This document shows positions 30,148-54,956 of a DNA stretch of 64,000 bases, piece after piece (position 1 is the stretch's first letter; the number at the start of each line of letters is the position of its first letter). Below the pieces are notes generated by a model, which was not told the origin of the DNA, did no database searches, and worked only from the letters and a program-made list of their open reading frames with translations. The DNA is from Candidatus Dojkabacteria bacterium (GTDB taxonomy: Bacteria > Patescibacteriota > Dojkabacteria > B142 > OLB20): the NCBI GenBank assembly GCA_030583785.1, contig CP129475.1, positions 25,941 to 89,940 of the forward strand. The letters run 5' to 3'. Position numbers and translations under genes: made by a program.

Positions 30148-31413
30148 ATGAATAATCAGAAAACAATAGTTATAGTTGGAGGCGGAGCTGCAGGTATTAT
30201 GGCAGCGCTTAGTGTTCGCAAACATCATCCTCAAGATAAAATAATAATTCTGGATAGGACCTTTGCTTTGGGGCGAAAGATATTAGTTTGTGGAGCTGGT
30301 CGTTGCAATATAACAAACATCAATTTAGAACACGACCCTGCAAAGCATTACTACGGAGCGAGTCCTGATTTTATAAATTCGGTATTTGAACAATTCGCTT
30401 ATGCAGATATTTCAAATTTCTTCCACGAACTTGGCATTAATCTATATGTCGAACAAAAAAAAAGGATAGGCAAATTGTTCCCCACCACAAATCGAGCAGA
30501 TACTGTTACTGAGATTCTTTATGATGAACTTGAACATCAGCGGGTTGAAGTACGAACAAACTGTGAAGTAAAACAAATAACTAAAGTTAATACAATTTTT
30601 AACTTGCTTGCTTACTATGAAGGAAAGCTATTAGAAATCAAAGCCGATTATGTCATTCTTGCCGCCGGGGGTAGAACATATCCTGCTCTAGGAGCTGATG
30701 GAAGTGGATATAATCTGGCAAGATCTCTTGGGCATAATATTATTGAGCCTGTACCTTCAGCTCTACCGTTAGAAGCCAAGAATAACCTTTCACAACATCT
30801 TCAAGGCATTAGAATGGAATTAAATGTATCTGCCGAAATCAATGGAGAAATCAAAAAGAGCAGCACAGACGAGGTTATGTTTACTAATTATGGTTTAAGC
30901 GGACCAGCGGTACTAAATGTTAGTAGAGAGATTTCGATTCATCTTAATCGCAATAAACAAATCGAAGCTTATGTTTATTTAAATGCCTTCCCAATGCTAA
31001 CAGTTAAGCAGGTTAACGATCTATTAACGGCTAGGTGGAATAAGAAACCGAATCAGTCTGTAGTAAAAAGTCTATACGGACTGTTTCCAAACAAAGTTGC
31101 ACTGGCATATGTTAAAGAGTCGGGTATATCAGAGACTGCTTCTTCAAAAGATATTTCTACTGAACAGAAAGAAAAATTAATCAAAATCCTAACAAATTAC
31201 AAAATAAAAGTGCAAGCAACACGAGGCTGGAACGAAGCAGAGTTTACTGCAGGAGGAGTAGATACTTCAGAAGTTATGTCAACCAGTCTGCAATCAAAGC
31301 TTGTTTCGGGTTTGTATTTCTGTGGAGAAATACTCAATGTAGATGGTGATGTCGGTGGCTTTAATCTTTCTTGGGCATGGTCGTCTGGTCATGTCGCCGG
31401 TAAACTGCAATGA
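30148..31413 (+). CDS. HI0933/BaiN-family FAD-dependent oxidoreductase
   Basis: IVIVGGGAAGIMAAL (dinucleotide fold) and ILVCGAGRCNITN (HI0933 signature). The start is chosen at MNNQKT. The ORF can extend to 30106. Confidence 0.65.
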   Translation: MNNQKTIVIVGGGAAGIMAALSVRKHHPQDKIIILDRTFALGRKILVCGAGRCNITNINLEHDPAKHYYGASPDFINSVFEQFAYADISNFFHELGINLYVEQKKRIGKLFPTTNRADTVTEILYDELEHQRVEVRTNCEVKQITKVNTIFNLLAYYEGKLLEIKADYVILAAGGRTYPALGADGSGYNLARSLGHNIIEPVPSALPLEAKNNLSQHLQGIRMELNVSAEINGEIKKSSTDEVMFTNYGLSGPAVLNVSREISIHLNRNKQIEAYVYLNAFPMLTVKQVNDLLTARWNKKPNQSVVKSLYGLFPNKVALAYVKESGISETASSKDISTEQKEKLIKILTNYKIKVQATRGWNEAEFTAGGVDTSEVMSTSLQSKLVSGLYFCGEILNVDGDVGGFNLSWAWSSGHVAGKLQ

Positions 31414-31471
31414 ACTTCTTGACAATGCAAATATCATAAATATATCCTGTTGGCGGTTAGTTCACTTTTTT

Positions 31472-32452
31472 ATGCTAATAGATGATACAGACTTAACAAA
31501 TAGTCCGTTACAGCCAGAAGCTTTAAATAAAGCACAAACTGAGAGGTTGATACGCGAAAGATCTCGTTATGCAACCGAACTTGTAACGACAGGTATTCTC
31601 GACGGTACTTTGCATCTAACAACTCTGTATGGAGTTATGGGCGGGAGAAAGACCGGAACCTTAGCTGATATTGTTTCAGGGCTTCGTTCAAATAGTCGAT
31701 CTGTGCATATTTACCAGCCTAAAGGGATCAATAGAGGTGGTCTTAATGATGATCAAGTCTGGAGAAGAGATGGGGAAGCAATCACAGGCAATGTTGCTGG
31801 TGCAGATAGCCTTTTGCCAATAATTAGTAATATTAAATCAAGGGTTATCGAGCCCGGTGCAGTTATATCACTTGTGGAGGCACAATTTATTGATTCTGAC
31901 CCAGATAATATCGCTGCCTTTTTGGATATTGCTAAACAAATGCAGCATCCTGTTATCGTAGATGCTTTGGGCTCCTGGTTTGATGGTTTACCTGTTGGAG
32001 TGTGCGGTGATTATATCCAACGATCAAATTTAGCCATTCCGTTTCAAGGCTGGGACGATCTTGACCATAGTCGATTCGCTGATTGTACATTGCGTCTTGT
32101 AGGAATTACTCCAAACGGTGATGTTATCGACCCGCACACAGAAGATACTTATTATCGCGGACTAACACAACCAGAACGAATAGACCTAGTGAACAAGGTT
32201 AGAGAAGTTTACCAAGATAGGTTACTACTAAATAATCCCGATGGATATCAAGGTGTGTGTTATGGACTACCTTCTTATACCAGAGATGCAAGGTTTGCCC
32301 CTGGTGCAGGTAGATATCGCAGTGCTTCTATAGATAACTGGCGTCAACTATACGATTTCACTGGGACTCCAATTACAACAAATGTGCAACCAATAAAAGA
32401 AGTCTTCTCCGGAGAGAATATTCTCAATTGGCAGACCGTAGGTTTTGATTGA
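31472..32452 (+). CDS. Thymidine-kinase-like P-loop protein with a C-terminal extension (tentative)
   Basis: TTLYGVMGGRKTGT (degenerate Walker A), ISLVEAQFI (TK has VDEAQFF/ECQFL) and HPVIVDALGSWFDG (TK has VIVAGLD.DF). A ~150-aa C-terminal extension has no known match. The start is uncertain; the ORF track begins at 31343. Confidence 0.3.
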   Translation: MLIDDTDLTNSPLQPEALNKAQTERLIRERSRYATELVTTGILDGTLHLTTLYGVMGGRKTGTLADIVSGLRSNSRSVHIYQPKGINRGGLNDDQVWRRDGEAITGNVAGADSLLPIISNIKSRVIEPGAVISLVEAQFIDSDPDNIAAFLDIAKQMQHPVIVDALGSWFDGLPVGVCGDYIQRSNLAIPFQGWDDLDHSRFADCTLRLVGITPNGDVIDPHTEDTYYRGLTQPERIDLVNKVREVYQDRLLLNNPDGYQGVCYGLPSYTRDARFAPGAGRYRSASIDNWRQLYDFTGTPITTNVQPIKEVFSGENILNWQTVGFD

Positions 32453-32503: not shown

Positions 32504-35500
32504 TTGAAAACCATAAAAAAAATATTTGCAGTTATCGGAATCTTGCTAATAGCAGGGGTTTCAGTTTTAGTTATTGCAAACCTTTCACAAGACCTTTCAC
32601 CAGAACAGAGTAGTGCAAATTTTGAATATGGCTTGATTGCAAAACAGAAGTCTGAATCCAGTCAAATTAAATTAACAACTGGTGATAGGGTGGATGTAGA
32701 AGTCCTCATGCTTGCTCCACAATCTGATCAGGGCAATCCAGAATCTGCTGAGGTAGTCATAGAATATAATCCTTCTCAATTGGAATTTGTAGAGATTTCT
32801 GAAGCAAGCGATGTATTAATGATTGGTCCAGAGAGCGATCCGACTAGAGGTCGCATCATCGTTGATTTTGTCAAACAAGGTCAGGGTGGATTTGTTGGGG
32901 ATAGTCTAAACCTAAAACTATTAGCAACGGCTTCTTTCACTCTTCGCTCCTCGGAACTTGATAATGTAAAAATCTCCTTTTCATCTGACTCAAAAGTAGG
33001 GGATAAAATGATTTCGCAATTAAATGCTGACGAAGAATTTAGTGTTGTTGTCTCAGGTAGTCTCCCTGTTTGTGGTAATAGCAATTGTGAATCAGGAGAA
33101 ACACTAATATGCCCACAGGACTGCAAAACAGTACCTACCCCATTAGCCAATAATATAAATACTCCTGAAGTAGATCCTAAATGCTCAGAGCTTGGCATTA
33201 ACTATGCTTCAGTTGTTCCGGTTGGAGACAATTGGCACGAGAAGGCTCAAAGCCTTGGTATGGGTTATACCCTAGAGATTGTAGGCAATTCTGAACAAAA
33301 ACTGGGTGTATTGCAGTCATTTCGTGCAGCAATGGCTAGAGGATTAACGCCAATTCTTCGTATATGTTATGGAAGTTATTGTTCATTTTCAAATGTTAAT
33401 ACATACATCAACTTTGTTAATGATCTAGCAGATGAACTAGCAAATGATGGAACTTTCTATATAATAGCAGGGCCGAATGAACCGTTGTCTGAGAATTGGT
33501 TGGGGAATATTGTTGGTGATCCAATATCTACGGCACAAAAAATAACACCATACATGAATGCTGTAATCGATGGTGTAAGTAAACCTAATGTTAAAATCCT
33601 CTCACCGGTTTTTAATACTACTAACGATAATTTTCCTTTTCTGGTTAGTGAGATGAAAATGCGAGGAGCTAAATTCAATCAACTAGATGGTATTGCTGGC
33701 AATGCATATAATCTTAAAGGCTATTCACTGGGTGAAACCCTTTCAGATTTCGTTACCAGAATGCGTGCCCAAGGCTTTTCTGCAAATGATATATATTTAA
33801 CTGAAGTAGGAGCATTTGAATCAGATAAAAATAATGGATGGACAGGTACAAAAGTCCCTCATCAAGAAGCCTTGCAGAATCTTCGTAACGAAATAGTAAA
33901 GCTTAGAAATGATAATAAAGTGAAAGCATATCTGTTGTTTAACTCTTTTGGGACAAATTCCGATTCCAATTTTGACTATAATGTCTTCTCTGATGATGAG
34001 TTAAATTATCTGGTTGGACCAGAATGTGTTAATGAAGATAATTCTCCATCCTCGACTCCCACAGCCACACCGTCGCCAACTATATCTAGCGTTCCTTTAT
34101 GTCGATATCTTTCAACTCAAGCAAGAGTCCAACGCTCGGTTACTGAACCTTGGGTTGATAATCTAGAGATAAGTTGTGAGGAAAGCTTTTCTGTCGGGTC
34201 GTTTCATGATAATAACGGTCAGTTTGCAAATGATACAATCATTAATGTCATCGATCCTCAAAACAGGACAAGTAATCTTAAGAACGGAGATAGCTTCAGG
34301 ACATCTGTCCCAGGCGACTATCGAGTTGTTGTAACTACAAACGGACAAGAAGGTGTAAATTGCCGAGATGAAGCAAAAGTAAGCTGCTCAAGCACCACAA
34401 CTCCGACACCCTGCCCAATAGAGCCAGTATGTTCAGCAGGTTATGATTTAGTAACGATACCACCATTTGATGGAGTCGGCTGTACAGTTTATGAATGTGT
34501 ACCTAGTTCAACAACTTTGACCTGTCAATCAGACAGATTTGTCGATAGCTTTTCTGCCCAGGGGATTAATAATTTTATCTGGAAAACAAGCGAAAAAGGT
34601 GGCGTAAGAACCGCGAATGGACATCTGTTAATCTCTGTTCCTTCTGGATCTTTTCAAAATAACTATGTAGAGACTAGATCTTTCATGCAAGGGAATTTTC
34701 AAATAACTGCTGATATCGTTGGACTTTCCACAGATTATAAAAATAGTGGAACTGCAGAATTAGGAGTAGGAAGTCCACTTGGACATGCGCACCTAGGCTT
34801 GAATCAAGGACACGATGGAAAACAATATCTCGAAGCGAATATTAGAATTGGTGAAAATTGGCTGGGTTCTAAGACATTAGATTTGGGTAATGTAAAACCA
34901 CCTGTGAAACTAATAATCTCTAGGTTCGGATCAACAGTATCTATGAGTGCAGAATATGGGGGAACTACCAAGCAAGTTGCAATTTTCAATAATGTTTACC
35001 TAGGGAATGTAAATGCTCAGCTTTACTCGTTTACAAAAGATGACAATCCAGCTATTAATGCAGCGTTTGATAATTACACTTATGGATGTTCTTCTGATCC
35101 CGGCTCGGTTACGGGTGTTCCAACTCCGGTTCCACCAACGCCACGACCAACTTGCCCAGTTGATCTAAAGGTCTGTCCTAGTGGATTTACAGTTAGTAGA
35201 GATCCATTTAATAACTGCGAATTCCGAACCTGTCCAATTGTGAGTTCAGTTTGCGGTAACAATATTTGCGAGACTGATGAAGAAATTAACAAATCTTGTT
35301 CTATTGATTGTGCACCAACAGTTACCCCGACTCCGACTCAGGCTCCAAAATGTACCTCGCATGAATATACACAGTGGTCTGAATGTATTAATGGATACAG
35401 AACTCGTAAATTGATATCTTCTTTACCAGAAGGATGTAAGCAGGGAGTTAGTCCAATTTTCGGCGAGGTCTGTGGTTCTGGATCATTAATATGCACCACA

Positions 35501-35983
35501 GATACAAAAGCATGTGATGACGGGACATGGGTTAGCAGGGATCCTTCAAACAATTGTGAATTTATGCAATGTCCAGGTCAAACAGAGTGTGTACAGCCAC
35601 CAGCTTGTGCAAATCCTGGGCCTGGTGAAGCAAGATGTTATCTCTCTCCAGAAACAAATTGGTGTAGCTTGGAATGTGAACCTATTCCTGCTTGTGCATT
35701 GGATTCGGCAGAACAGAGATGTTCTTTAGCTCCAGGTGTCAATTATTGTCAAGCTTTAGACCAAAATAGCGTAGACGAAAAGACAGCTAATGCCTGTAAG
35801 GCGGATTATGATGGCAATGGAACTATAGATATTAATGATTTTGCAGTATTTGCAAAAAATTACAAAAAAGAGAATATCGATTGTTCGCTGGACATTGTTA
35901 ATAATGACTGCAAACTGGATATCTCTGATTTTAGATTATTAGGATACATTTATGGTCAAGAAAATGCTTGTAAGAACAATTAG
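32504..35983 (+). CDS. Large secreted multi-domain protein: N-terminal anchor/signal, GH clan-A (GH5-like) domain, S/T/P linkers, beta-sandwich (ConA/LamG-like) domain, three Cys-rich repeats, C-terminal dockerin
   Basis: N-terminal TM KIFAVIGILLIAGVSVLVIA. IIAGPNEPLSENW (GH5 acid/base NEP) and ~110 aa later IYLTEVGAF (GH5 nucleophile TE.G). Linkers NSPSSTPTATPSPT, SSTTTPTPCP and TPVPPTPRPT. Dockerin duplicated Ca-binding loop DYDGNGTIDINDFAVF ... DIVNNDCKLDISDFRLL. Confidence 0.6.
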   Translation: MKTIKKIFAVIGILLIAGVSVLVIANLSQDLSPEQSSANFEYGLIAKQKSESSQIKLTTGDRVDVEVLMLAPQSDQGNPESAEVVIEYNPSQLEFVEISEASDVLMIGPESDPTRGRIIVDFVKQGQGGFVGDSLNLKLLATASFTLRSSELDNVKISFSSDSKVGDKMISQLNADEEFSVVVSGSLPVCGNSNCESGETLICPQDCKTVPTPLANNINTPEVDPKCSELGINYASVVPVGDNWHEKAQSLGMGYTLEIVGNSEQKLGVLQSFRAAMARGLTPILRICYGSYCSFSNVNTYINFVNDLADELANDGTFYIIAGPNEPLSENWLGNIVGDPISTAQKITPYMNAVIDGVSKPNVKILSPVFNTTNDNFPFLVSEMKMRGAKFNQLDGIAGNAYNLKGYSLGETLSDFVTRMRAQGFSANDIYLTEVGAFESDKNNGWTGTKVPHQEALQNLRNEIVKLRNDNKVKAYLLFNSFGTNSDSNFDYNVFSDDELNYLVGPECVNEDNSPSSTPTATPSPTISSVPLCRYLSTQARVQRSVTEPWVDNLEISCEESFSVGSFHDNNGQFANDTIINVIDPQNRTSNLKNGDSFRTSVPGDYRVVVTTNGQEGVNCRDEAKVSCSSTTTPTPCPIEPVCSAGYDLVTIPPFDGVGCTVYECVPSSTTLTCQSDRFVDSFSAQGINNFIWKTSEKGGVRTANGHLLISVPSGSFQNNYVETRSFMQGNFQITADIVGLSTDYKNSGTAELGVGSPLGHAHLGLNQGHDGKQYLEANIRIGENWLGSKTLDLGNVKPPVKLIISRFGSTVSMSAEYGGTTKQVAIFNNVYLGNVNAQLYSFTKDDNPAINAAFDNYTYGCSSDPGSVTGVPTPVPPTPRPTCPVDLKVCPSGFTVSRDPFNNCEFRTCPIVSSVCGNNICETDEEINKSCSIDCAPTVTPTPTQAPKCTSHEYTQWSECINGYRTRKLISSLPEGCKQGVSPIFGEVCGSGSLICTTDTKACDDGTWVSRDPSNNCEFMQCPGQTECVQPPACANPGPGEARCYLSPETNWCSLECEPIPACALDSAEQRCSLAPGVNYCQALDQNSVDEKTANACKADYDGNGTIDINDFAVFAKNYKKENIDCSLDIVNNDCKLDISDFRLLGYIYGQENACKNN

Positions 35984-36599
35984 TTTGATACTGTTACCAC
36001 TGGCCTTTGTTTGTCTGTTTGCATCTAATGTTAATGCACAAGATAATTCAGCAAAGATAACATTTGAAACAGAGGATGTCACGGTTGATATTGGCCAAGA
36101 TGTCCAGGTCAAAGTGGTCTACTCTGGGAGCTTTGACTCCAATGGAGTTTCGCTTCAATTGTCATATAATCCTGAACAGCTTACAGTTGTAAGTATAAAG
36201 GGAGAAACTGATACCCTCTCTGTTGGAACAACGATAGAAAACGGTCTTGCAGGAATAGATTTAGCCAAGGCTGAATCATTCCAAGACGGAGATGTATTGG
36301 CAGTAATTACTGTTCGACTTCTCACAGAAAAAGATACTACTTTGAAGTTATTAAGTACATCAAGAATTGTTGGCATAGAAGAGCAAACCCCTGAGCAAGA
36401 ATTGGGTGTTAAGTTTGCCTATCCTGAATTATTTCTCGCTACTAACGAAACTACAGAGAATGACAATAACTATGAGGAGTTTCAACCTGCCATAGCTATA
36501 ATACTAATGGTTGTTGGATCAATAATTCTTTCGGTTGCACTGATCGCATTATTCATTGTTTCTCTGAAAAGTAAACCAAATGTCAGTACAAAGATGTAA
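35952..36599 (+). CDS. Membrane-anchored cohesin-like domain protein
   Basis: Signal peptide, then ITFETEDVTVDIGQDVQVKVVYSGSFDSNGVSLQLSYNPEQLTVVSIKGE...GLAGIDLAKAES...GDVLAVITVRLL, which matches the cohesin beta-sandwich pattern (V.V......V.F.G......C.F...YDP..LE...I). It ends in a C-terminal TM plus a KSKPN tail. Confidence 0.5.
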   Translation: MVKKMLVRTISLILLPLAFVCLFASNVNAQDNSAKITFETEDVTVDIGQDVQVKVVYSGSFDSNGVSLQLSYNPEQLTVVSIKGETDTLSVGTTIENGLAGIDLAKAESFQDGDVLAVITVRLLTEKDTTLKLLSTSRIVGIEEQTPEQELGVKFAYPELFLATNETTENDNNYEEFQPAIAIILMVVGSIILSVALIALFIVSLKSKPNVSTKM

Positions 36600-49385: not shown

Positions 49386-52300
49386 CTATTGTCCCATCTC
49401 TGCGCAGGACGAACCGAACAATTGACATATTACTTCGTTAGGTACAGTCGGCTTCTTCGCTTTTCTGGAGAAATCGTTGTCGTTCAAAATACCACTTGCT
49501 CCGTAACAGTATCTTTTTCCATCGGCTGCAGTAGCTAGATTGCTCGATGCGTTCCAGCTATGGGCGAATGTACTAACATGAGATGATCCCGTTGCCGTAG
49601 ACGGAGGTGCAGCTGCATTGCAGCCAAGCAACTGTCCATATAGTAAATAAGGATCGACATCCATCTCAACACCATTGTGTGTGTAGTTGGCTAGTATATG
49701 AATATGAGCATTATTAACCGAGTAAACTCCGCCTTTAAAGTTACCATCTTTATCGGATTTATTGACAGTAACATATCCGATCAATTGCCCGACATTTACT
49801 TCTTTACCTTCAGCAGCCTCTGGTAATCTTCTGTTAACTGCTAAATGCTGAATGTGGTACTTGATTCCAGACCTTCCCTGCAAAATTATGATATCGCCGT
49901 AACCACCATCGTACCTGCGAAGAATTCTGCCGGCCTCTGGTGCAACAACTCGAAGTTTGGCATCAGATAAATCTGGGTTAGGATCACTATCTGAATTAAT
50001 TGGCCATGGATTTAAGTCTATCGGCAGTCCTCTGTTTTGGAAATGTGTAAACCATCCATAAGGACCCTGAAAACAAGAGTGTCCCGCTGGTGATGTCATA
50101 GGGCAGGTTGTGCCGGGTGCTCTTCCTGTAATAGGAGTTTCTATGTCAGTTCCCGGTCCTTCTTCAACTAAACATTCAATAACAGTAGCATCTGTCAAAT
50201 TGTCTCTAGCCCAAGTACCCAGTCTCGCTACATTTTCACAATAGGCCTTACCGTTGCAACTGGCTCGGTTATAGTACCAGGCACGGCCTGCGTAGACCAT
50301 GTCATTTGCAGTCCAAGATTCAGCTGGAATATAGTCAGGGTAGGCAACACCATCGTAAAAGTTGCGTTGAAATCTTGCTGCTTCTCCAAGATCTATTGCT
50401 GTGGCGCATATAACATCACCAATTCTGTGGCGACTAAAATTGTTTTTGTAGTAATCTCTAAGTGCAGGATCAGCTACATTGTCGTAGTATGTTCCGCCAA
50501 CTTGACCGGGTATTTCTTGCCCTCTACTTCTATCGACACCAAGAAAGTCCATACATGCTTCAAGAAGCTCTCTAGTGTTATCACGATCACCGGGACGACT
50601 CCATAATGGTCTGTTATCGACTATTCTTTTAAATCTTTCTGGCATATGCTGTCCGAGTCCTTTGCCATATGTATCTACGGGATGAGCATCTGCCCAAAGT
50701 GTTAATTGATTCGGATCGCCACCACAGGTATCAGCAAATATTGTATAGTCAGGCGCATCACTTTTAATAGTTTGCACAGTTACTCTGCCTCGATACCATT
50801 CTGCATAGGTGTCAACACATCTATGTCTTGTCTCAAAATTAAATATGGTCCAAGGAATATACCAAGGTATTCTAGAGCCTCCTCCTTGTGAATTGATAAA
50901 ATTAACTGCTTTTTGAACTAAGCTGGTGAAGTCATCACCTGATCCAGGGATTAGAGAACAACATTCGTCTGCAGGGCTAACCGGATCGATAGGTGAAGTT
51001 GATCCTGTTGCCGATAAGAGTATGGTAGCCGGATCGATGTAGTCCCTTCCACCTGCTGCGGTCTCTTTATACAGAGTGAAATGAAGGTGTCGACCTGTTG
51101 AGTTACCGGATGTACCCATAATTCCGAGTTTTGTACCTTTTGTTATTGTTGAGTTTAGTTTTACACCGCTTTCTACGGTTGCCAAATGAGCATAAAGGCT
51201 ATATACAGAGCTTCCATCGGTGAGTACATGTTTGATTTTTATATAGTTGCCATACCCTGAGCCACATGTGCTTCCTACAGATCCCTGAGCAGGGCAATTA
51301 TCAACTTTGTCTACTACTGTGCCGTCTGCAACTGCAACAATAGAAGGATCGCTATTATTAATTGTTACAAGATCTACACCGTTATGGTATTTACCAAGTT
51401 CTGGGTAATTATAATTTGTTGGACCAGTATATCCCCCAGAAATCTGATAACCGCCATTTCTAAACTGATTCACACAGGTGTTATATACAGTCTGACTATC
51501 TGTCGCTCCATAACAGTGAGACATAATAATCGAACCTTTTGCTGCTACCAATGGGCTACCAAAATCTTCAAGATTAACCTGCGGAGCTGGTTTTCCACCT
51601 GTTGCAGGATTAATGCATTGGTTTATTCCAGGTACAAAATTACTTGTTCTTGGTTGTTTAAATCCTCCACCAGAAGTTAACGGATCGGTTGTCCTATCCG
51701 CAAAAAGCCATTCCTCTAGTGGATCTACTTCACTTTGATCTCTAGCAATACAATCACATTGACCTTTGGGACTTCCGTCTGGACAATCACAATCACAAAA
51801 ATCGATAATAATCTTACCAGTCTCGGTATTTCTAAGATTTAGAGATCCGCACTGTGCTTCGCGAACATTCTTGAATGATTTTCCTGTGTCGTAAGTGTCG
51901 ACATTTGTGAGAAAAACACTTATTCTTTCAAGCATTCTAGGGATTTGTCCAAGCCAAGGATAATAGTAATACAGATCTACTGCGGATACATCTTTTTCTT
52001 CACCCAGAGGATCAATAAACTTTGCCAAACGATAATCTCCTTCGTAGACAGGAAGATATTTTTCTGGCTCAGAAAGATTGCTAATATATTCTCTAAGAAA
52101 ATGATCGGGTATGTTTTCGATATCAAAATCTGAATCTGGGTTTTCAAATAGCTTTAAGTTATATTTAAGAACCTCAGCCAATAGGTCACCCTCAAGTCTT
52201 TTAGCTGGATCGTATGAAGATCGGTTATTTTTGGTGTAGTCAGATTTGCTCTGAGTCATTTGCAGGTCATAGACTCTAAGCCCCCATTCAGTTGTTAATC

Positions 52301-54956
52301 CAGAGTTAACATTATGAATGATTTTGTATGGACTGTTGATTCTTTCCAGTTGGTATACTAGGTATAGGTATCTTGACAGTCCTATTAAATCGGTTGCCTG
52401 ATAACCATTTCTTACCCAGCGCATATGTGGGTCACCACCTACCGAATCGACTTGCTTGTTGAGTCCTCTGCAAGCTCGATAAATGCTGTCAATACTTGTT
52501 GAACAAGTTGTTTGAACTCCGCAAATGTCTACAAAAGGAATGACTTCACCGCTCCAAGGAACTGTATCTCCGGGACAGAATGAGACAGAATACGAGCTTC
52601 CCGGAGCTTGTCTGGAAACTCTGGACACGAAGCCGGCCGTAATTGCATCTGGATAGGATTCTCCGCCGGGGAGATCATAGTATTCGCGAAGTCTGTCATT
52701 TTGATCTGGTAATTGACATCTAGCTCCAGTAGTTTTTATCTGAACTTGTCTATCGTTCTCTTGAACTTGGACAGCAATTCCAAATTGAGCATCGCAAAGT
52801 TGGTTTTCGGTAATTTCGTAATTCCAATCATCTTCGATCAAGTATTCATATGGACCAGAGGTGTCGTCGTTGACAAACTTCATCGATTTTCCGTCTAGCT
52901 GTCTAAAGCTATTAATTCCCTTACCTGGAATTCTGGAGCAGTATATTTCGTCGGGGATTGTCTCTCCTTCGACATTTGCTCCTTGAGAAAAGAAACTAAA
53001 CAGTTTTTTAAGAAAACTAACCAGCACATTGTCGTTAATGTTTTCTGGGGCAAGTGTAGCTCCACCTGCATTTTTTAAGTTCTGTGTTGATAAAGGATGT
53101 ATGCGCATATCGAAAGTATCTATGGGATCAGATACTACTTCGTTCCAGCTAAGGATTCCGCAAGCCGAAGCGCCACCAAGAAGAGGTGTTTTAATATTTA
53201 CAGCACTTGATTCATTAGTACGAATAAATCTTGCCAGACCAGGAAACTCACTGGTAAAGAAGAGCTCAAAGGGAGATTGGGTCCCGTTCGTTTTTTGATA
53301 TAGATAATATGGATGAGTAATGTTTCTAAAACTTAAGGTTTTACAATAAGGAGTGTAGGGATTAGCATCAGTTTTCTCTGATGTTGCTAGAAATGAGATG
53401 AGAGGGAATTCACGCATTCCTCCGGTATATGCAAATCCTGCAGTCCAGTTTTTTTCATCTGCACAAATTTGCTGATAAGGTTTACTGTCAGCGCTGTTAG
53501 TCTGGAATCCAGTTGGGTGATTCGGATCACATGAGTTAAGATCAAGCCAAACTTGAAGTTTACCATTAGGCGATAAAGATTCTCGTTCGGTATCTGAGCT
53601 TTGTAAGAGTAAACCATTTATTGTTTTTGGTTGTACTTCACAACTTCGCATTGTCCAATGTGTAGGCAGTTCGAGATGTTCTGCTGTTTGCGGGTCAACC
53701 TGTGCAGCAATGCTCAGATCTTTTGGTTGAGGTAGTTCACGGATATTACACGCCCCAAGAGGACCAAAAATTTGAGCTATGGCATTATCGTCAAGTTCTA
53801 GATTTGACCAGGGGGTTCCATCTGGCAATGTACGATCTCCTCCTTGTCCGAATGCATTAAAGAATAAGGCGAAAACAATTCTTCCGTTTTCTGCTATTGC
53901 CCTCACTTCTTCTGCAAGCATAGAATAGTCTTTCAAAAAATTGCCCATCTCGTTGATTCCCCAAGGCTTACTGTCAGTAAAGACTCTGCCGGCAAGGTCT
54001 ATTGCGGCCATAACATTAGATTCTGGTTGTGTTGGGATTCCGGAATATACATTGAAGGTCCACATGTCTACATGATCATTACCACCGGCATCAACAAACT
54101 TTTGATGACCTTCTGTAAAGATTGCTCCACCATCGGCAAAAATATTGTATGTCGGACCAGAAATTACAATATTTGCAGCATGATCAGATCTCCTGACAAC
54201 TTCGGCAAAACAACGATGAAAATCTGCAGCTTTTGTGAAACGATCCATCATAGGTGTATTCACATTCCCTAGAAACCAGGATTCTGAATTGATCTCGTTT
54301 AGTGGTGCAGCAACAAACTTAATTCCTGGTGCTTGATCTGCAACTTCTAAAGTTGCATTACCTGCTGCTCGCCCTGCACTACAAGCATCTGTAATACCAG
54401 CCGTTCCAACTTTGATTTCGCAATCGGGCGGTAGGCCTCTTTCTCCGTCAACTCTGCCATCGCTTCCTTGATTTGTATCTCCATAACAATACCTATATAC
54501 GCCTGTCAGACCACTTGTTTTCAATGCTTCTGATGCAACCCCTGAGTGAACTGGTCCTTGTAGAGTATGAAGATAATACTTCATGCCCCATTCCAAGATT
54601 TTTCCGTAGTTATCGCTTTGTAGCGGTTCAGTTAGTAAGTTGACGCCAAATTTATCGCAAACAGCTACAGCTCCGTCATTGCTACTTGGAGTCCCTGTCG
54701 GAGATGTGGTTGGATTTGCCTGAGCAATATTTTGTTGCAGGATTCTGGCAATAATGCTTTCTTCACTACCAATAAGTCTTTCTGGTTCAATTTCATTTCC
54801 AGAAAAGGAATCATTGCCAATCGATATTGTTGTTCTAGTGATTGAGAATAATATTCCAAAAGCGGCAACAGAAACTACCACAACTAGCATTAAAGCCTGT
54901 GGTCGTTTATATAGTTCAATTAAAGCCGTTTTAATCTTCAGCAATGTCATCTGCAT
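49386..54956 (-). CDS. Giant (1856 aa) membrane-anchored surface protein with a GH clan-A-like region and two M23 (LytM-type) peptidase domains
   Basis: N-terminal TM LMLVVVVSVAAFGILFSI. AAPLNEINSES and ~110 aa later WGINEMGNF (a clan-A acid/base and nucleophile-like pair). First M23: YHNGVDL...YAHL...GRHLHFTLY (HxxxD...HxH) at nt ~51060-51420. Second M23-like: GYGDIIILQGRSGIKYHIQHL...NNAHIHILA at nt ~49680-50100. Cys-rich segments are present, including CDCDCPDGSPKGQCDC. Confidence 0.6.
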   Translation of the reverse strand: MQMTLLKIKTALIELYKRPQALMLVVVVSVAAFGILFSITRTTISIGNDSFSGNEIEPERLIGSEESIIARILQQNIAQANPTTSPTGTPSSNDGAVAVCDKFGVNLLTEPLQSDNYGKILEWGMKYYLHTLQGPVHSGVASEALKTSGLTGVYRYCYGDTNQGSDGRVDGERGLPPDCEIKVGTAGITDACSAGRAAGNATLEVADQAPGIKFVAAPLNEINSESWFLGNVNTPMMDRFTKAADFHRCFAEVVRRSDHAANIVISGPTYNIFADGGAIFTEGHQKFVDAGGNDHVDMWTFNVYSGIPTQPESNVMAAIDLAGRVFTDSKPWGINEMGNFLKDYSMLAEEVRAIAENGRIVFALFFNAFGQGGDRTLPDGTPWSNLELDDNAIAQIFGPLGACNIRELPQPKDLSIAAQVDPQTAEHLELPTHWTMRSCEVQPKTINGLLLQSSDTERESLSPNGKLQVWLDLNSCDPNHPTGFQTNSADSKPYQQICADEKNWTAGFAYTGGMREFPLISFLATSEKTDANPYTPYCKTLSFRNITHPYYLYQKTNGTQSPFELFFTSEFPGLARFIRTNESSAVNIKTPLLGGASACGILSWNEVVSDPIDTFDMRIHPLSTQNLKNAGGATLAPENINDNVLVSFLKKLFSFFSQGANVEGETIPDEIYCSRIPGKGINSFRQLDGKSMKFVNDDTSGPYEYLIEDDWNYEITENQLCDAQFGIAVQVQENDRQVQIKTTGARCQLPDQNDRLREYYDLPGGESYPDAITAGFVSRVSRQAPGSSYSVSFCPGDTVPWSGEVIPFVDICGVQTTCSTSIDSIYRACRGLNKQVDSVGGDPHMRWVRNGYQATDLIGLSRYLYLVYQLERINSPYKIIHNVNSGLTTEWGLRVYDLQMTQSKSDYTKNNRSSYDPAKRLEGDLLAEVLKYNLKLFENPDSDFDIENIPDHFLREYISNLSEPEKYLPVYEGDYRLAKFIDPLGEEKDVSAVDLYYYYPWLGQIPRMLERISVFLTNVDTYDTGKSFKNVREAQCGSLNLRNTETGKIIIDFCDCDCPDGSPKGQCDCIARDQSEVDPLEEWLFADRTTDPLTSGGGFKQPRTSNFVPGINQCINPATGGKPAPQVNLEDFGSPLVAAKGSIIMSHCYGATDSQTVYNTCVNQFRNGGYQISGGYTGPTNYNYPELGKYHNGVDLVTINNSDPSIVAVADGTVVDKVDNCPAQGSVGSTCGSGYGNYIKIKHVLTDGSSVYSLYAHLATVESGVKLNSTITKGTKLGIMGTSGNSTGRHLHFTLYKETAAGGRDYIDPATILLSATGSTSPIDPVSPADECCSLIPGSGDDFTSLVQKAVNFINSQGGGSRIPWYIPWTIFNFETRHRCVDTYAEWYRGRVTVQTIKSDAPDYTIFADTCGGDPNQLTLWADAHPVDTYGKGLGQHMPERFKRIVDNRPLWSRPGDRDNTRELLEACMDFLGVDRSRGQEIPGQVGGTYYDNVADPALRDYYKNNFSRHRIGDVICATAIDLGEAARFQRNFYDGVAYPDYIPAESWTANDMVYAGRAWYYNRASCNGKAYCENVARLGTWARDNLTDATVIECLVEEGPGTDIETPITGRAPGTTCPMTSPAGHSCFQGPYGWFTHFQNRGLPIDLNPWPINSDSDPNPDLSDAKLRVVAPEAGRILRRYDGGYGDIIILQGRSGIKYHIQHLAVNRRLPEAAEGKEVNVGQLIGYVTVNKSDKDGNFKGGVYSVNNAHIHILANYTHNGVEMDVDPYLLYGQLLGCNAAAPPSTATGSSHVSTFAHSWNASSNLATAADGKRYCYGASGILNDNDFSRKAKKPTVPNEVICQLFGSSCAEMGQ

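What the first reader, a model, noticed from the sequence alone, without database searches (positions are those of the whole stretch)
32504..36599. Cellulosome-like module: dockerin-bearing GH5-like giant protein followed by a membrane-anchored cohesin-like protein
The 1159-aa protein ends with a duplicated dockerin calcium-binding segment (DYDGNGTIDINDFAVF / DIVNNDCKLDISDFRLL). It carries a GH clan-A catalytic signature (NEP acid/base and TE.G nucleophile ~110 aa apart) and Ser/Thr/Pro linkers typical of secreted glycoside hydrolases. The next gene, overlapping by 32 nt, encodes a signal-peptide protein whose sequence fits a cohesin beta-sandwich and ends in a single TM anchor. A cognate cohesin-dockerin pair encoded back-to-back suggests a minimal surface-tethered glycanase complex. 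In an episymbiont this could act on host envelope polysaccharide rather than cellulose.
Basis: partly seen in the sequence, partly recalled or inferred. Interest (0 to 1): 0.6.

Follow-up and report, generated by a model that had tools for sequence, protein, structure and literature searches.

The report
Surface cohesin-dockerin glycanase pair
Two overlapping genes in a tiny-celled (WS6/Dojkabacteria-like) bacterium encode a large secreted sugar-cutting enzyme with a variant "dockerin" plug and a small membrane-anchored "cohesin" socket, a stripped-down relative of cellulosome parts whose binding has not been tested.

Summary

- **Large protein (1159 aa):** it holds a high-confidence (beta/alpha)8 barrel with NEP after strand 4 and TEVG on strand 7. 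All top structural matches are clan GH-A glycosidases, but no single family stands out and Pfam GH5 does not hit. "GH5-like" should therefore read "unclassified clan GH-A".
- **C-terminal module:** its last ~60 aa form an internally duplicated Ca-loop/helix module. This belongs to a distinct four-cysteine dockerin-like family of at least 185 sequence clusters. Family members sit at the ends of modular carbohydrate-active enzymes and often share a protein with cohesins. The family profile hits solved dockerins first, yet Pfam Dockerin_1 misses it.
- **Small protein (215 aa):** signal peptide, cohesin fold (48 of 50 top PDB matches are cohesins) and a C-terminal membrane helix.
the large protein has its own N-terminal cohesin.
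- **Pair conservation:** the gene pair is conserved in WS6 OLB20. A similar anchored-cohesin plus dockerin-enzyme pair occurs independently in another candidate-phyla (CPR) contig.

I rate it a new variant of a known kind, of moderate interest.

The parts
32504..35983 (+). Gene for the 1159-aa secreted multi-domain protein (cohesin, clan GH-A barrel, accessory domains, Cys-dockerin)
   Evidence: ORF. A 99% identical protein (P0001) and a full-length WS6 OLB20 orthologue (P0002, 48% identity) appear.
32504..32584 (+). N-terminal signal peptide or signal anchor (aa 1-27, MKTIKKIFAVIGILLIAGVSVLVIANL)
   Evidence: It is the only hydrophobic segment of the protein (Kyte-Doolittle scan). Cleavage after VIA is inferred, not tested.
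32633..33052 (+). N-terminal cohesin module of the large protein (aa ~44-183)
   Evidence: Pfam Cohesin gives E 0.005 here, and 27.1 bits (cutoff 24.1) for the OLB20 orthologous domain. BLASTP against the small protein gives E 0.004. The local cohesin profile gives E 4e-38, although that profile (A11) was built with this segment as one of its rows.
33065..33124 (+). Cys-rich mini-module PVCGNSNCESGETLICPQDC (repeated at aa 917-936)
   Evidence: Sequence repeat found; conserved in P0002. Function unknown.
33182..34027 (+). Clan GH-A (beta/alpha)8 catalytic domain (aa 227-508)
33479..33481 (+). Glu326 of NEP, the putative acid/base just after strand 4
   Evidence: Invariant in 11 homologues. It is model residue 122, following strand E114-117.
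33803..33805 (+). Glu434 of TEVG, the putative nucleophile at the end of strand 7
   Evidence: Invariant in 11 homologues. It is model residue 230, within strand E226-231.
34094..34393 (+). Beta-rich domain (aa 531-630), duplicated in the OLB20 orthologue
   Evidence: Alignment A2 shows a tandem extra copy in P0002. Pfam gives only weak Filamin and ZirS_C hits (E 0.01-0.04). Identity not established.
34517..35098 (+). Unassigned ~190-aa domain (aa 672-865), shared with P0002 and P0004
   Evidence: BLASTP against P0004 gives E 8e-10. No Pfam or PDB sequence hit. A carbohydrate-binding role is only a guess.
35153..35773 (+). Cys-rich region with repeated C..D...C..G..V.RD...NC.F..C units (aa 884-910 and 997-1023)
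   Evidence: Pattern search; the cysteines are conserved in P0002.
35795..35971 (+). C-terminal four-cysteine dockerin-like module (aa 1098-1156). Loop 1 is DYDGNGTIDIND; loop 2 is DIVNNDCKLDISD.
   Evidence: Exhaustive profile search finds 185 cluster representatives at E<=1e-3. Of 93 full-length matches, 68 are C-terminal and 17 N-terminal. The family profile against PDB puts dockerin 2y3n_B first at E 4.9e-6, with dockerins taking 7 of the first 7 ranks and 10 of the top 15. NCBIfam dockerin_GC gives E 1.6e-4, 22 bits against a cutoff of 29. The two halves are homologous to each other.
35952..36599 (+). Gene for the 215-aa membrane-anchored cohesin protein
   Evidence: ORF. The OLB20 orthologue sits in the same position with the same 32-nt overlap. 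An AGGA motif 9 nt upstream of the ATG is conserved in OLB20.
35952..36038 (+). Signal peptide of the small protein (aa 1-29, ending NVNA)
   Evidence: Hydrophobic segment. The sequence is conserved as V.AQ in OLB20. Cleavage is inferred.
36048..36440 (+). Cohesin module of the small protein (aa ~33-163)
   Evidence: Pfam Cohesin gives E 0.0046, 17.6 bits. AF2 gives pLDDT 79 and pTM 0.73, with eight strands. Forty-eight of the 50 top Foldseek PDB hits are cohesins; the best is 2jh2 at E 1.4e-6, with TM up to 0.72.
36489..36560 (+). C-terminal transmembrane helix (aa 180-203) followed by a basic tail
   Evidence: Hydropathy scan. The OLB20 orthologue has the same feature.

Best explanation
**What the two proteins are**
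- The large protein is exported and carries a retaining clan GH-A glycanase domain. Glu326 is the likely acid/base and Glu434 the likely nucleophile.
- That domain is flanked by an N-terminal cohesin, several accessory beta-rich and Cys-rich modules, and a C-terminal dockerin-like module. The dockerin-like module is a duplicated Ca-loop plus helix, probably stapled by two disulfides.
- The small protein is exported and held in the cytoplasmic membrane by a C-terminal helix. It exposes a single cohesin.

**How it most likely works (inferred)**
- The dockerin of the enzyme plugs into a cohesin, most probably that of the co-encoded small protein. This would hold the enzyme on the cell surface.
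- The enzyme's own cohesin would then stay free to recruit another dockerin-bearing protein or another copy of itself.

**Status of each step**
- Shown here: domain identities, fold, conservation of the catalytic residues, and recurrence of the gene pair.
- Inferred: the binding itself, Ca dependence, the disulfides, the partner choice and the substrate.
For: **Catalytic domain**
- Confident TIM barrel with the glutamates on strands 4 and 7.
- Only clan GH-A glycosidases top the structural searches.
- The motifs are invariant in homologues, including circularly permuted ones.

**Dockerin-like module**
- The family profile finds solved dockerins first: 2y3n_B at E 4.9e-6, with dockerins taking the first seven ranks and 10 of the top 15.
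- 33 of 50 family members hit NCBIfam dockerin_GC.
- It contains an internal 22-residue duplication.
- Family members sit at protein termini.
- Carrier proteins hold GH5, GH16, GH10, GH8, CBM6/35, pectate-lyase-like beta-helices and Cohesin.
- About 23 carrier proteins have cohesins of the same subfamily in the same polypeptide.

**Cohesin of the small protein**
- 48 of the 50 top Foldseek hits are cohesins.
- Membrane helix.

**The pair**
- It is conserved with the same overlap in WS6 OLB20, at 25-48% protein identity.
- An independent contig, L003, has a 215-aa signal-peptide, cohesin (Pfam 42 bits) and transmembrane gene overlapping a 504-aa Cys-dockerin protein that has no cohesin of its own.
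- Precedent: the adjacent single-cohesin and single-dockerin genes of Cellulosilyticum lentocellum form a complex experimentally (PMC13487519).
Against: - No binding or complex prediction could be obtained.
- Pfam Dockerin_1 does not recognise the module (E 0.2).
- The second loop departs from the Ca-binding consensus.
- The small protein is only 25% identical to its OLB20 orthologue, whereas the dockerin is ~60% conserved and the enzyme's own cohesin 39%. A tightly co-evolving interface is therefore not evident, and the enzyme's own cohesin is an alternative partner.
- Gene overlap and synteny are not specific evidence here. The small gene also overlaps Tag, and the whole block of ten or more genes is syntenic.
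- Most other Cys-dockerin loci fetched show no adjacent anchored cohesin.
Confidence: 0.55

Rival explanations
1. The dockerin binds the enzyme's own N-terminal cohesin, either in trans (giving head-to-tail chains or dimers) or in cis. The large protein is held by its own uncleaved N-terminal signal anchor. The small anchored cohesin would then serve a different dockerin protein encoded elsewhere in the genome.
For: - The large protein has both modules.
- The cohesin-plus-dockerin architecture recurs in about 23 family members, some with two cohesins.
- The enzyme's own cohesin is better conserved between orthologues (39%) than the small protein (25%).
- The N-terminal hydrophobic stretch is long (19 residues) and lacks a classical AxA site.
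Against: - In L003 the dockerin enzyme has no cohesin of its own, and the only local partner is the anchored cohesin.
- The small gene is retained next to the large one in both genomes.
Confidence: 0.22
2. The modules resemble cohesin and dockerin in fold only and do not bind each other. The C-terminal module would be a Ca- and disulfide-stabilised terminal domain or a glycan- or cell-binding module. The small protein would be an unrelated Ig-like surface protein, and the adjacency would be an accident of a compact genome.
For: - Single-sequence searches score EF-hand proteins as high as dockerins.
- Pfam thresholds are not reached for the dockerin or for the small protein's cohesin.
- Overlaps with unrelated genes are common in this locus.
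Against: - The family profile ranks dockerins above EF-hand proteins.
- Position 12 of the loops is Asp, as in dockerins, rather than the Glu of EF-hands. The loop residues are read; the rule itself is my own knowledge.
- Cohesins co-occur strongly in the same proteins and neighbourhoods.
- The carrier proteins form a typical dockerin-borne CAZyme set.
Confidence: 0.13
3. This rival concerns the substrate. The enzyme would attack cell-envelope glycans, of a host or neighbour or of the cell's own wall, rather than plant or environmental polysaccharides.
For: - A paralogous GH-A-like domain sits in a 1856-aa protein with a Peptidase_M23 domain in the same window.
- The homologue P0005 combines the domain with a NAGPA phosphodiester glycosidase.
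- P0004 lies between Mur ligase and MurB genes.
Against: - Other proteins with the same dockerin family carry plant- and algal-polysaccharide enzymes: GH5, GH10, GH16, pectate-lyase-like domains, alginate lyase and CBM6/35.
- The structural neighbours (GH53, GH26, GH39, GH5) give no specificity.
- Neighbourhood evidence is weak in compact genomes.
Confidence: 0.3

Closest known systems
Non-cellulosomal cohesin-dockerin modules of Clostridium perfringens glycoside hydrolases (GH84 NagH/NagJ, GH33; PDB 2jh2, 2w1n, 2vo8, 2ozn)
   Same: Single cohesins and dockerins sit on large secreted glycosidases that do not act on cellulose. These cohesins are the best structural matches to the small protein, and the 2jnk/2ozn dockerin appears among the sequence hits.
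   Different: Those modules pass the standard family models. They lack the four-cysteine pattern and are not tethered by a separate transmembrane-anchored cohesin protein. Their role in toxin complex formation is from my own knowledge.
Minimal cellulosome-like pair ClcC/ClcD of Cellulosilyticum lentocellum (PMC13487519)
   Same: One cohesin gene and one dockerin gene lie side by side. The pair was shown to form a heterodimer that enhances glycanase activity. This is the same logic as the pair proposed here.
   Different: That organism is a Firmicute with canonical domains. Here the dockerin is a divergent Cys-containing variant, the enzyme carries its own extra cohesin, the cohesin partner is membrane-anchored, and binding is untested.
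Classical cellulosome type I/II cohesin-dockerin with anchoring scaffoldins (e.g. 1ohz, 2ccl, 2b59, 2y3n)
   Same: Duplicated Ca-loop/helix dockerin at the C-terminus of a glycoside hydrolase, a cohesin beta-sandwich, and surface attachment through an anchoring protein.
   Different: The window has no multi-cohesin scaffoldin and no CBM3, SLH or sortase signal, and only one dockerin. Anchoring is by a transmembrane helix. The dockerin's second loop is longer and contains cysteine.
Archaeoglobus fulgidus non-cellulosomal protein carrying both a cohesin and a dockerin (cohesin structure 2xdh)
   Same: Cohesin and dockerin sit on one polypeptide outside any cellulolytic context. 2xdh is among the Foldseek hits (rank 29).
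   Different: An archaeal protein without a catalytic glycosidase domain. The architecture detail is from my own knowledge and was not tested here.
Clan GH-A glycoside hydrolase families (GH53, GH39, GH26, GH5, GH30, GH128)
   Same: (beta/alpha)8 barrel with Asn-Glu after strand 4 and Glu on strand 7.
NCBIfam NF041540 'GC-type dockerin domain'
   Same: It is the best curated model for the module. Thirty-three of 50 family members hit it at E<=0.01, and the match covers both repeats.
   Different: The window's module scores 22 bits against a cutoff of 29, so it is related but is not called a member.

Membership tests
Dockerin (Pfam PF00404 Dockerin_1 / type I) | Scores above the curated family threshold | tested here: not met
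   Dockerin_1 gives E 0.2, 12.3 bits against 22.9, on the isolated C-terminus. It is not among the top 25 Pfam families listed for the 81 carrier proteins.
Dockerin (Pfam PF00404 Dockerin_1 / type I) | Two tandem ~22-residue segments, each a 12-residue Ca-binding loop followed by a helix | tested here: met
   The two halves align to each other with hhalign probability 97.4%, E 1.5e-11, over 22 columns. Loop 1 (DYDGNGTIDIND) fits positions 1, 3, 5, 9 and 12. Loop 2 keeps Asp at positions 1, 5, 9 and 12 but has one extra residue and Cys at position 6. The helices were not modelled.
Dockerin (Pfam PF00404 Dockerin_1 / type I) | Sequence relationship to solved dockerins rather than to EF-hand proteins | tested here: met
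   The family profile finds 2y3n_B at E 4.9e-6. Ranks 2-7 are also dockerins and 10 of the top 15 are dockerins. Single-sequence searches were ambiguous.
Dockerin (Pfam PF00404 Dockerin_1 / type I) | Ca-dependent binding to a cohesin | not testable with these tools
NCBIfam NF041540 GC-type dockerin | Scores above the curated cutoff | tested here: not met
   22 bits against a cutoff of 29, E 1.6e-4. Thirty-three of 50 relatives hit at E<=0.01.
Cohesin (Pfam PF00963), small protein | Scores above the curated family threshold | tested here: not met
   17.6 bits against 24.1, E 0.0046. Relatives pass: the L003 anchored cohesin scores 42.2 bits and the OLB20 N-terminal cohesin 27.1 bits.
Cohesin (Pfam PF00963), small protein | Cohesin-type beta-sandwich fold | tested here: met
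   AF2 gives pLDDT 79 and pTM 0.73, with eight strands called. Forty-eight of the 50 best PDB matches are cohesins, E 1.4e-6 to 3e-4, TM up to 0.72.
Cohesin (Pfam PF00963), N-terminal module of the large protein | Family-model match | tested here: inconclusive
   The window's own sequence gives 17.4 bits, E 0.005. The orthologous domain in OLB20 gives 27.1 bits, above the cutoff. Its structure was not predicted.
Glycoside hydrolase family 5 (Pfam PF00150 Cellulase) | Family-model match or a clear preference for GH5 structures | tested here: not met
Clan GH-A (4/7 superfamily) | (beta/alpha)8 barrel with the acid/base Glu after strand 4 (preceded by Asn) and the nucleophile Glu on strand 7 | tested here: met
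   N325-E326 and E434 are invariant in the homologues.
Clan GH-A (4/7 superfamily) | Retaining glycosidase activity | not testable with these tools
   Requires an enzyme assay.
Cellulosome | Scaffoldin with several cohesins that collects many dockerin-bearing enzymes, usually with a cellulose-binding module | tested here: not met
   The window holds one dockerin and two single cohesins and no multi-cohesin protein. The rest of the genome is not available.

The most novel reading that the evidence does not exclude
CPR bacteria such as Dojkabacteria possess their own disulfide-stapled dockerin/cohesin surface-assembly system, distinct from the Firmicute one. In it, proteins carrying both a cohesin and a dockerin daisy-chain onto a membrane-anchored cohesin. 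The system displays, among other enzymes, a previously unclassified and circularly permutable clan GH-A family. That family's association with M23 and NAGPA domains points to attack on the cell walls of hosts or neighbours.
Probability: 0.15. Interest if true: 0.75.

Novelty: new variant of a known kind. Interest (0 to 1): 0.5.

Why it matters
Cohesin-dockerin pairs are the standard connector of cellulosomes and a widely used tool in protein engineering. Their roles outside cellulolytic Firmicutes are poorly understood.

This locus gives a compact, testable example in an uncultivated small-genome lineage: one anchored socket and one enzyme carrying both a plug and a socket. The plug belongs to a sizeable family (at least 185 sequence clusters) that standard domain models miss.

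If binding is confirmed, three things follow.
- It would explain how such cells hold large hydrolases on their surface.
- It would add a disulfide-containing dockerin type with possibly different Ca dependence.
- It would define an unclassified clan GH-A family whose substrate may bear on how these organisms feed on polymers or on other cells.

Tried and rejected
- **Co-folding the small protein's cohesin with the dockerin.** I built a linker fusion with paired rows. A first MAFFT alignment of that construct was also misaligned.
- **Deepening the cohesin alignment.** A word-indexed search with a 14-row profile returned only the near-identical P0015. Cohesin segments from the exhaustive-search hits were used instead.
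- **Genome-collection scans.** The scan with the 50-row dockerin alignment failed for lack of a conserved stretch. The 7-row version found only OLB20 and one other contig. The metagenome scan gave 25 loci, of which about ten are true family members.
- **Single-sequence and two-sequence PDB searches.** They could not separate dockerins from calmodulin-type EF-hands. The 50-row profile did.
- **GH5 membership.** Considered and rejected.
- **Identity of the aa 531-630 and aa 672-865 domains.** Only sub-threshold Pfam hits for the first and none for the second, and no meaningful PDB sequence hit.
- **Names or taxonomy for ten family members.** None were on record.
- **Literature.** No paper was found describing cohesin-dockerin pairs in CPR. 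There are only annotation-level mentions of dockerin-like proteins in SR1 (PMC3812714) and of an essential dockerin-domain protein in Saccharibacteria (PMC10633639).

Full report
**Observation.** The large one runs 32504..35983 (+, TTG start, 1159 aa) and the small one 35952..36599 (+, 215 aa), sharing 32 nt. The quoted motifs are present: DYDGNGTIDINDFAVF at aa 1101-1116, DIVNNDCKLDISDFRLL at aa 1130-1146, NEP at 325-327 and TEVG at 433-436. Ser/Thr/Pro linkers separate the domains.

**Organism and conservation.** A 99% identical protein exists in public assemblies (P0001). The only full-length relative is a hypothetical protein of candidate division WS6 (Dojkabacteria) bacterium OLB20 (P0002, 48% identity). 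The OLB20 contig has the same gene order over more than ten genes. That block includes a 208-aa orthologue of the small protein with the same 32-nt overlap. The window therefore comes from a WS6/Dojkabacteria-like CPR bacterium.

**Catalytic domain.**
- Standard libraries are silent on aa ~227-508. Fourteen homologues share this region.
- In an 11-sequence alignment, GIN.A, I.R, IAGPNEP..E.W, LSP.FN, A.N.Y, TE.G and L.F are invariant.
- The profile's best solved relative is the GH5 endoglucanase 3pzt, at only E = 0.008, with NEP and TE.G aligned to the enzyme's own motifs.
- An AlphaFold2 model of aa 205-515 is confident (pLDDT 89, pTM 0.88). It shows eight beta/alpha units, with Glu326 just after strand 4 and Glu434 at the end of strand 7.
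- Foldseek against the PDB returns mostly clan GH-A glycosidases: GH53 at 6.6e-8, then GH26, GH30, GH5_18, GH113, GH10, GH1 and GH128. TM is about 0.55-0.58 and identity 10-15%.
- The domain is therefore a clan GH-A retaining-type glycosidase fold with both catalytic glutamates conserved. It is not assignable to GH5 or any other solved family.

**C-terminal module.**
- On its own, the last 80 aa hit EF-hand_1 (E 1e-4), Dockerin_1 (E 0.2) and NCBIfam dockerin_GC (E 1.6e-4), all below threshold.
- PDB sequence searches with one or two sequences mix calmodulins with dockerins.
- An exhaustive profile search of 1.84 billion cluster representatives found 185 proteins at E<=1e-3 and 61 at E<=1e-10.
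- Ninety-three hold one full-length copy: 68 at the extreme C-terminus and 17 just after an N-terminal signal.
- The consensus is C.aDYN..GtvDi.DF..FA.NYKk..I.CsLDI.G.DC.LDi.DF..FA..YK....C. It has four nearly invariant cysteines, and a second loop that is one residue longer than a canonical Ca loop, with Cys where Gly normally sits.
- The two halves are homologous to each other (hhalign 97.4%, E 1.5e-11 over 22 columns). That is the defining duplication of dockerins.
- A 50-sequence profile of the module ranks solved dockerins first: 2y3n_B at 4.9e-6, then 5nrm, 4fl4, 2ccl, 5nrk, 2vn5 and 1ohz. EF-hand proteins fall lower.
- 33 of the 50 members hit NCBIfam's GC-type dockerin model.
- The 81 carrier proteins scanned hold what dockerin-bearing proteins usually hold: right-handed beta-helix (12), Cohesin (12), CBM6/CBM35 (about 10), GH5 (7), GH16, GH10, GH8, alginate lyase and apiosidase.
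- I conclude that this is a dockerin-like module of a distinct, Cys-containing subfamily that Pfam's model misses.

**Cohesins.**
- The small protein hits Pfam Cohesin below threshold (E 0.0046).
- An AF2 model of its ectodomain, built with 28 rows of related cohesin segments, is a beta-sandwich (pLDDT 79, pTM 0.73).
- Forty-eight of its 50 best PDB matches are cohesins. The list is led by the non-cellulosomal cohesins of Clostridium perfringens glycosidases (2jh2, 2w1n, 2vo8; E 1e-6 to 1e-5, TM up to 0.72) and includes the Archaeoglobus cohesin 2xdh.
- It begins with a signal peptide and ends with a membrane helix (aa 180-203) and a basic tail.
That segment aligns with the small protein (BLASTP E 0.004; hhalign E 0.003). 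It hits Pfam Cohesin at E 0.005, and the orthologous OLB20 domain passes the Pfam threshold (27.1 bits).
- A local profile finds exactly two cohesins and one dockerin in the window.
- It also finds cohesins of this subfamily in about 23 of the roughly 150 dockerin-family representatives, four of them with two tandem copies.

**The pair.**
- Overlap and synteny are weak arguments here. The small gene also overlaps the unrelated Tag gene by 20 nt, and the whole block is syntenic.
- An AGGA motif 9 nt upstream of the small gene's ATG, inside the dockerin's conserved LLG codons, is conserved in OLB20.
- A contig labelled Saccharibacteria (L003) gives stronger support. It carries a 215-aa signal-peptide, cohesin (Pfam 42 bits) and transmembrane gene overlapping by 4 nt a 504-aa protein that ends in the same Cys-dockerin and has no cohesin of its own.
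- That anchored cohesin is not the closest relative of the window's small protein. The arrangement therefore seems to have arisen more than once.
- Another locus (L009) has a secreted cohesin protein 1.9 kb from a dockerin protein. Several other loci show none within 6 kb or are too short to tell.
- Experimentally, adjacent single-cohesin and single-dockerin genes in Cellulosilyticum lentocellum do form a functional complex (PMC13487519).

**Mechanism.**
- Most likely (0.55): the enzyme is exported and its dockerin plugs into the membrane-anchored cohesin. This holds a clan GH-A glycanase at the cell surface, and its own cohesin can recruit a further dockerin protein.
- Main rival (0.22): the dockerin binds the enzyme's own cohesin, in trans or in cis, and the small protein serves another partner. 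The better conservation of the enzyme's cohesin (39%) than of the small protein (25%) between orthologues fits this.
- Sceptical rival (0.13): fold resemblance without binding.

**Substrate.** It is unknown.
- Hints towards cell-envelope glycans:
  - a paralogous domain (hhalign 97.6%, E 4e-12, N-E and E conserved) in the window's 1856-aa M23-peptidase protein;
  - a homologue fused to NAGPA;
  - Mur genes next to P0004.
- Hints towards environmental polysaccharides: the CAZyme set carried by the same dockerin family, and published suggestions that Dojkabacteria degrade carbohydrates (PMC7038595).

**Novelty.**
- Non-cellulosomal cohesin-dockerin modules are known in all domains of life (my own knowledge).
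- Dockerin-like proteins have been noted in SR1 and Saccharibacteria at annotation level.
- I found no description of a CPR cohesin-dockerin pair, of this four-cysteine dockerin subfamily, or of this GH-A-like family.
- I rate it a new variant of a known kind, of moderate interest. Binding and activity are the obvious experiments.

Noticed in passing
Homologues P0006-P0014 of window 33182-34027: The clan GH-A-like domain is circularly permuted in 9 of 14 homologues. The part after the NEP..W motif (strands 5-8) comes first and strands 1-4 follow, joined by a short Cys/Gly linker.
   Followed up: partly
window 49386-54956 (- strand): A 1856-aa protein carries a Peptidase_M23 domain (aa 1190-1299, E 1e-22) and, at aa ~98-400, a paralogue of the same GH-A-like domain. 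hhalign gives 97.6% probability and E 4e-12, with the N-E and INEMG motifs conserved. It may be a giant cell-wall-degrading protein.
   Followed up: partly
P0005 (Candidatus Dojkabacteria, 1731 aa): The same GH-A-like domain (aa 70-343) is combined with a C-terminal NAGPA phosphodiester glycosidase domain (aa 1578-1703).
   Followed up: no
L003 1589-3747 (CAYXSB010000046.1): An independent gene pair in reversed order. A 215-aa signal-peptide, cohesin and transmembrane protein overlaps by 4 nt a 504-aa Cys-dockerin protein whose central domain has no Pfam hit.
   Followed up: partly
window 33065-33124 and 35252-35311; 35153-35233 and 35492-35572: Two kinds of short Cys-rich repeats lie inside the large protein: CGN..CE..E....C..DC twice and C..D...C..G..V.RD...NC.F..C twice. 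Both are conserved in OLB20 and their function is unknown.
   Followed up: no
window 36580-36599: The small gene's 3' end overlaps the start of a DNA-3-methyladenine glycosylase I (Tag) gene by 20 nt. Gene overlaps are common in this locus, so they are not evidence of functional coupling on their own.
   Followed up: yes
L009 8039-9148 (- strand): A 370-aa secreted protein has an N-terminal cohesin followed by three RFWS...HFYT.SE.EK repeats. It lies 1.9 kb from a Cys-dockerin protein.
   Followed up: no
window 31343-32452: The gene just upstream encodes a 369-aa protein with only a borderline thymidine-kinase-like Pfam hit (E 5e-4). It is conserved in the same position in OLB20, without annotation.
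   Followed up: no
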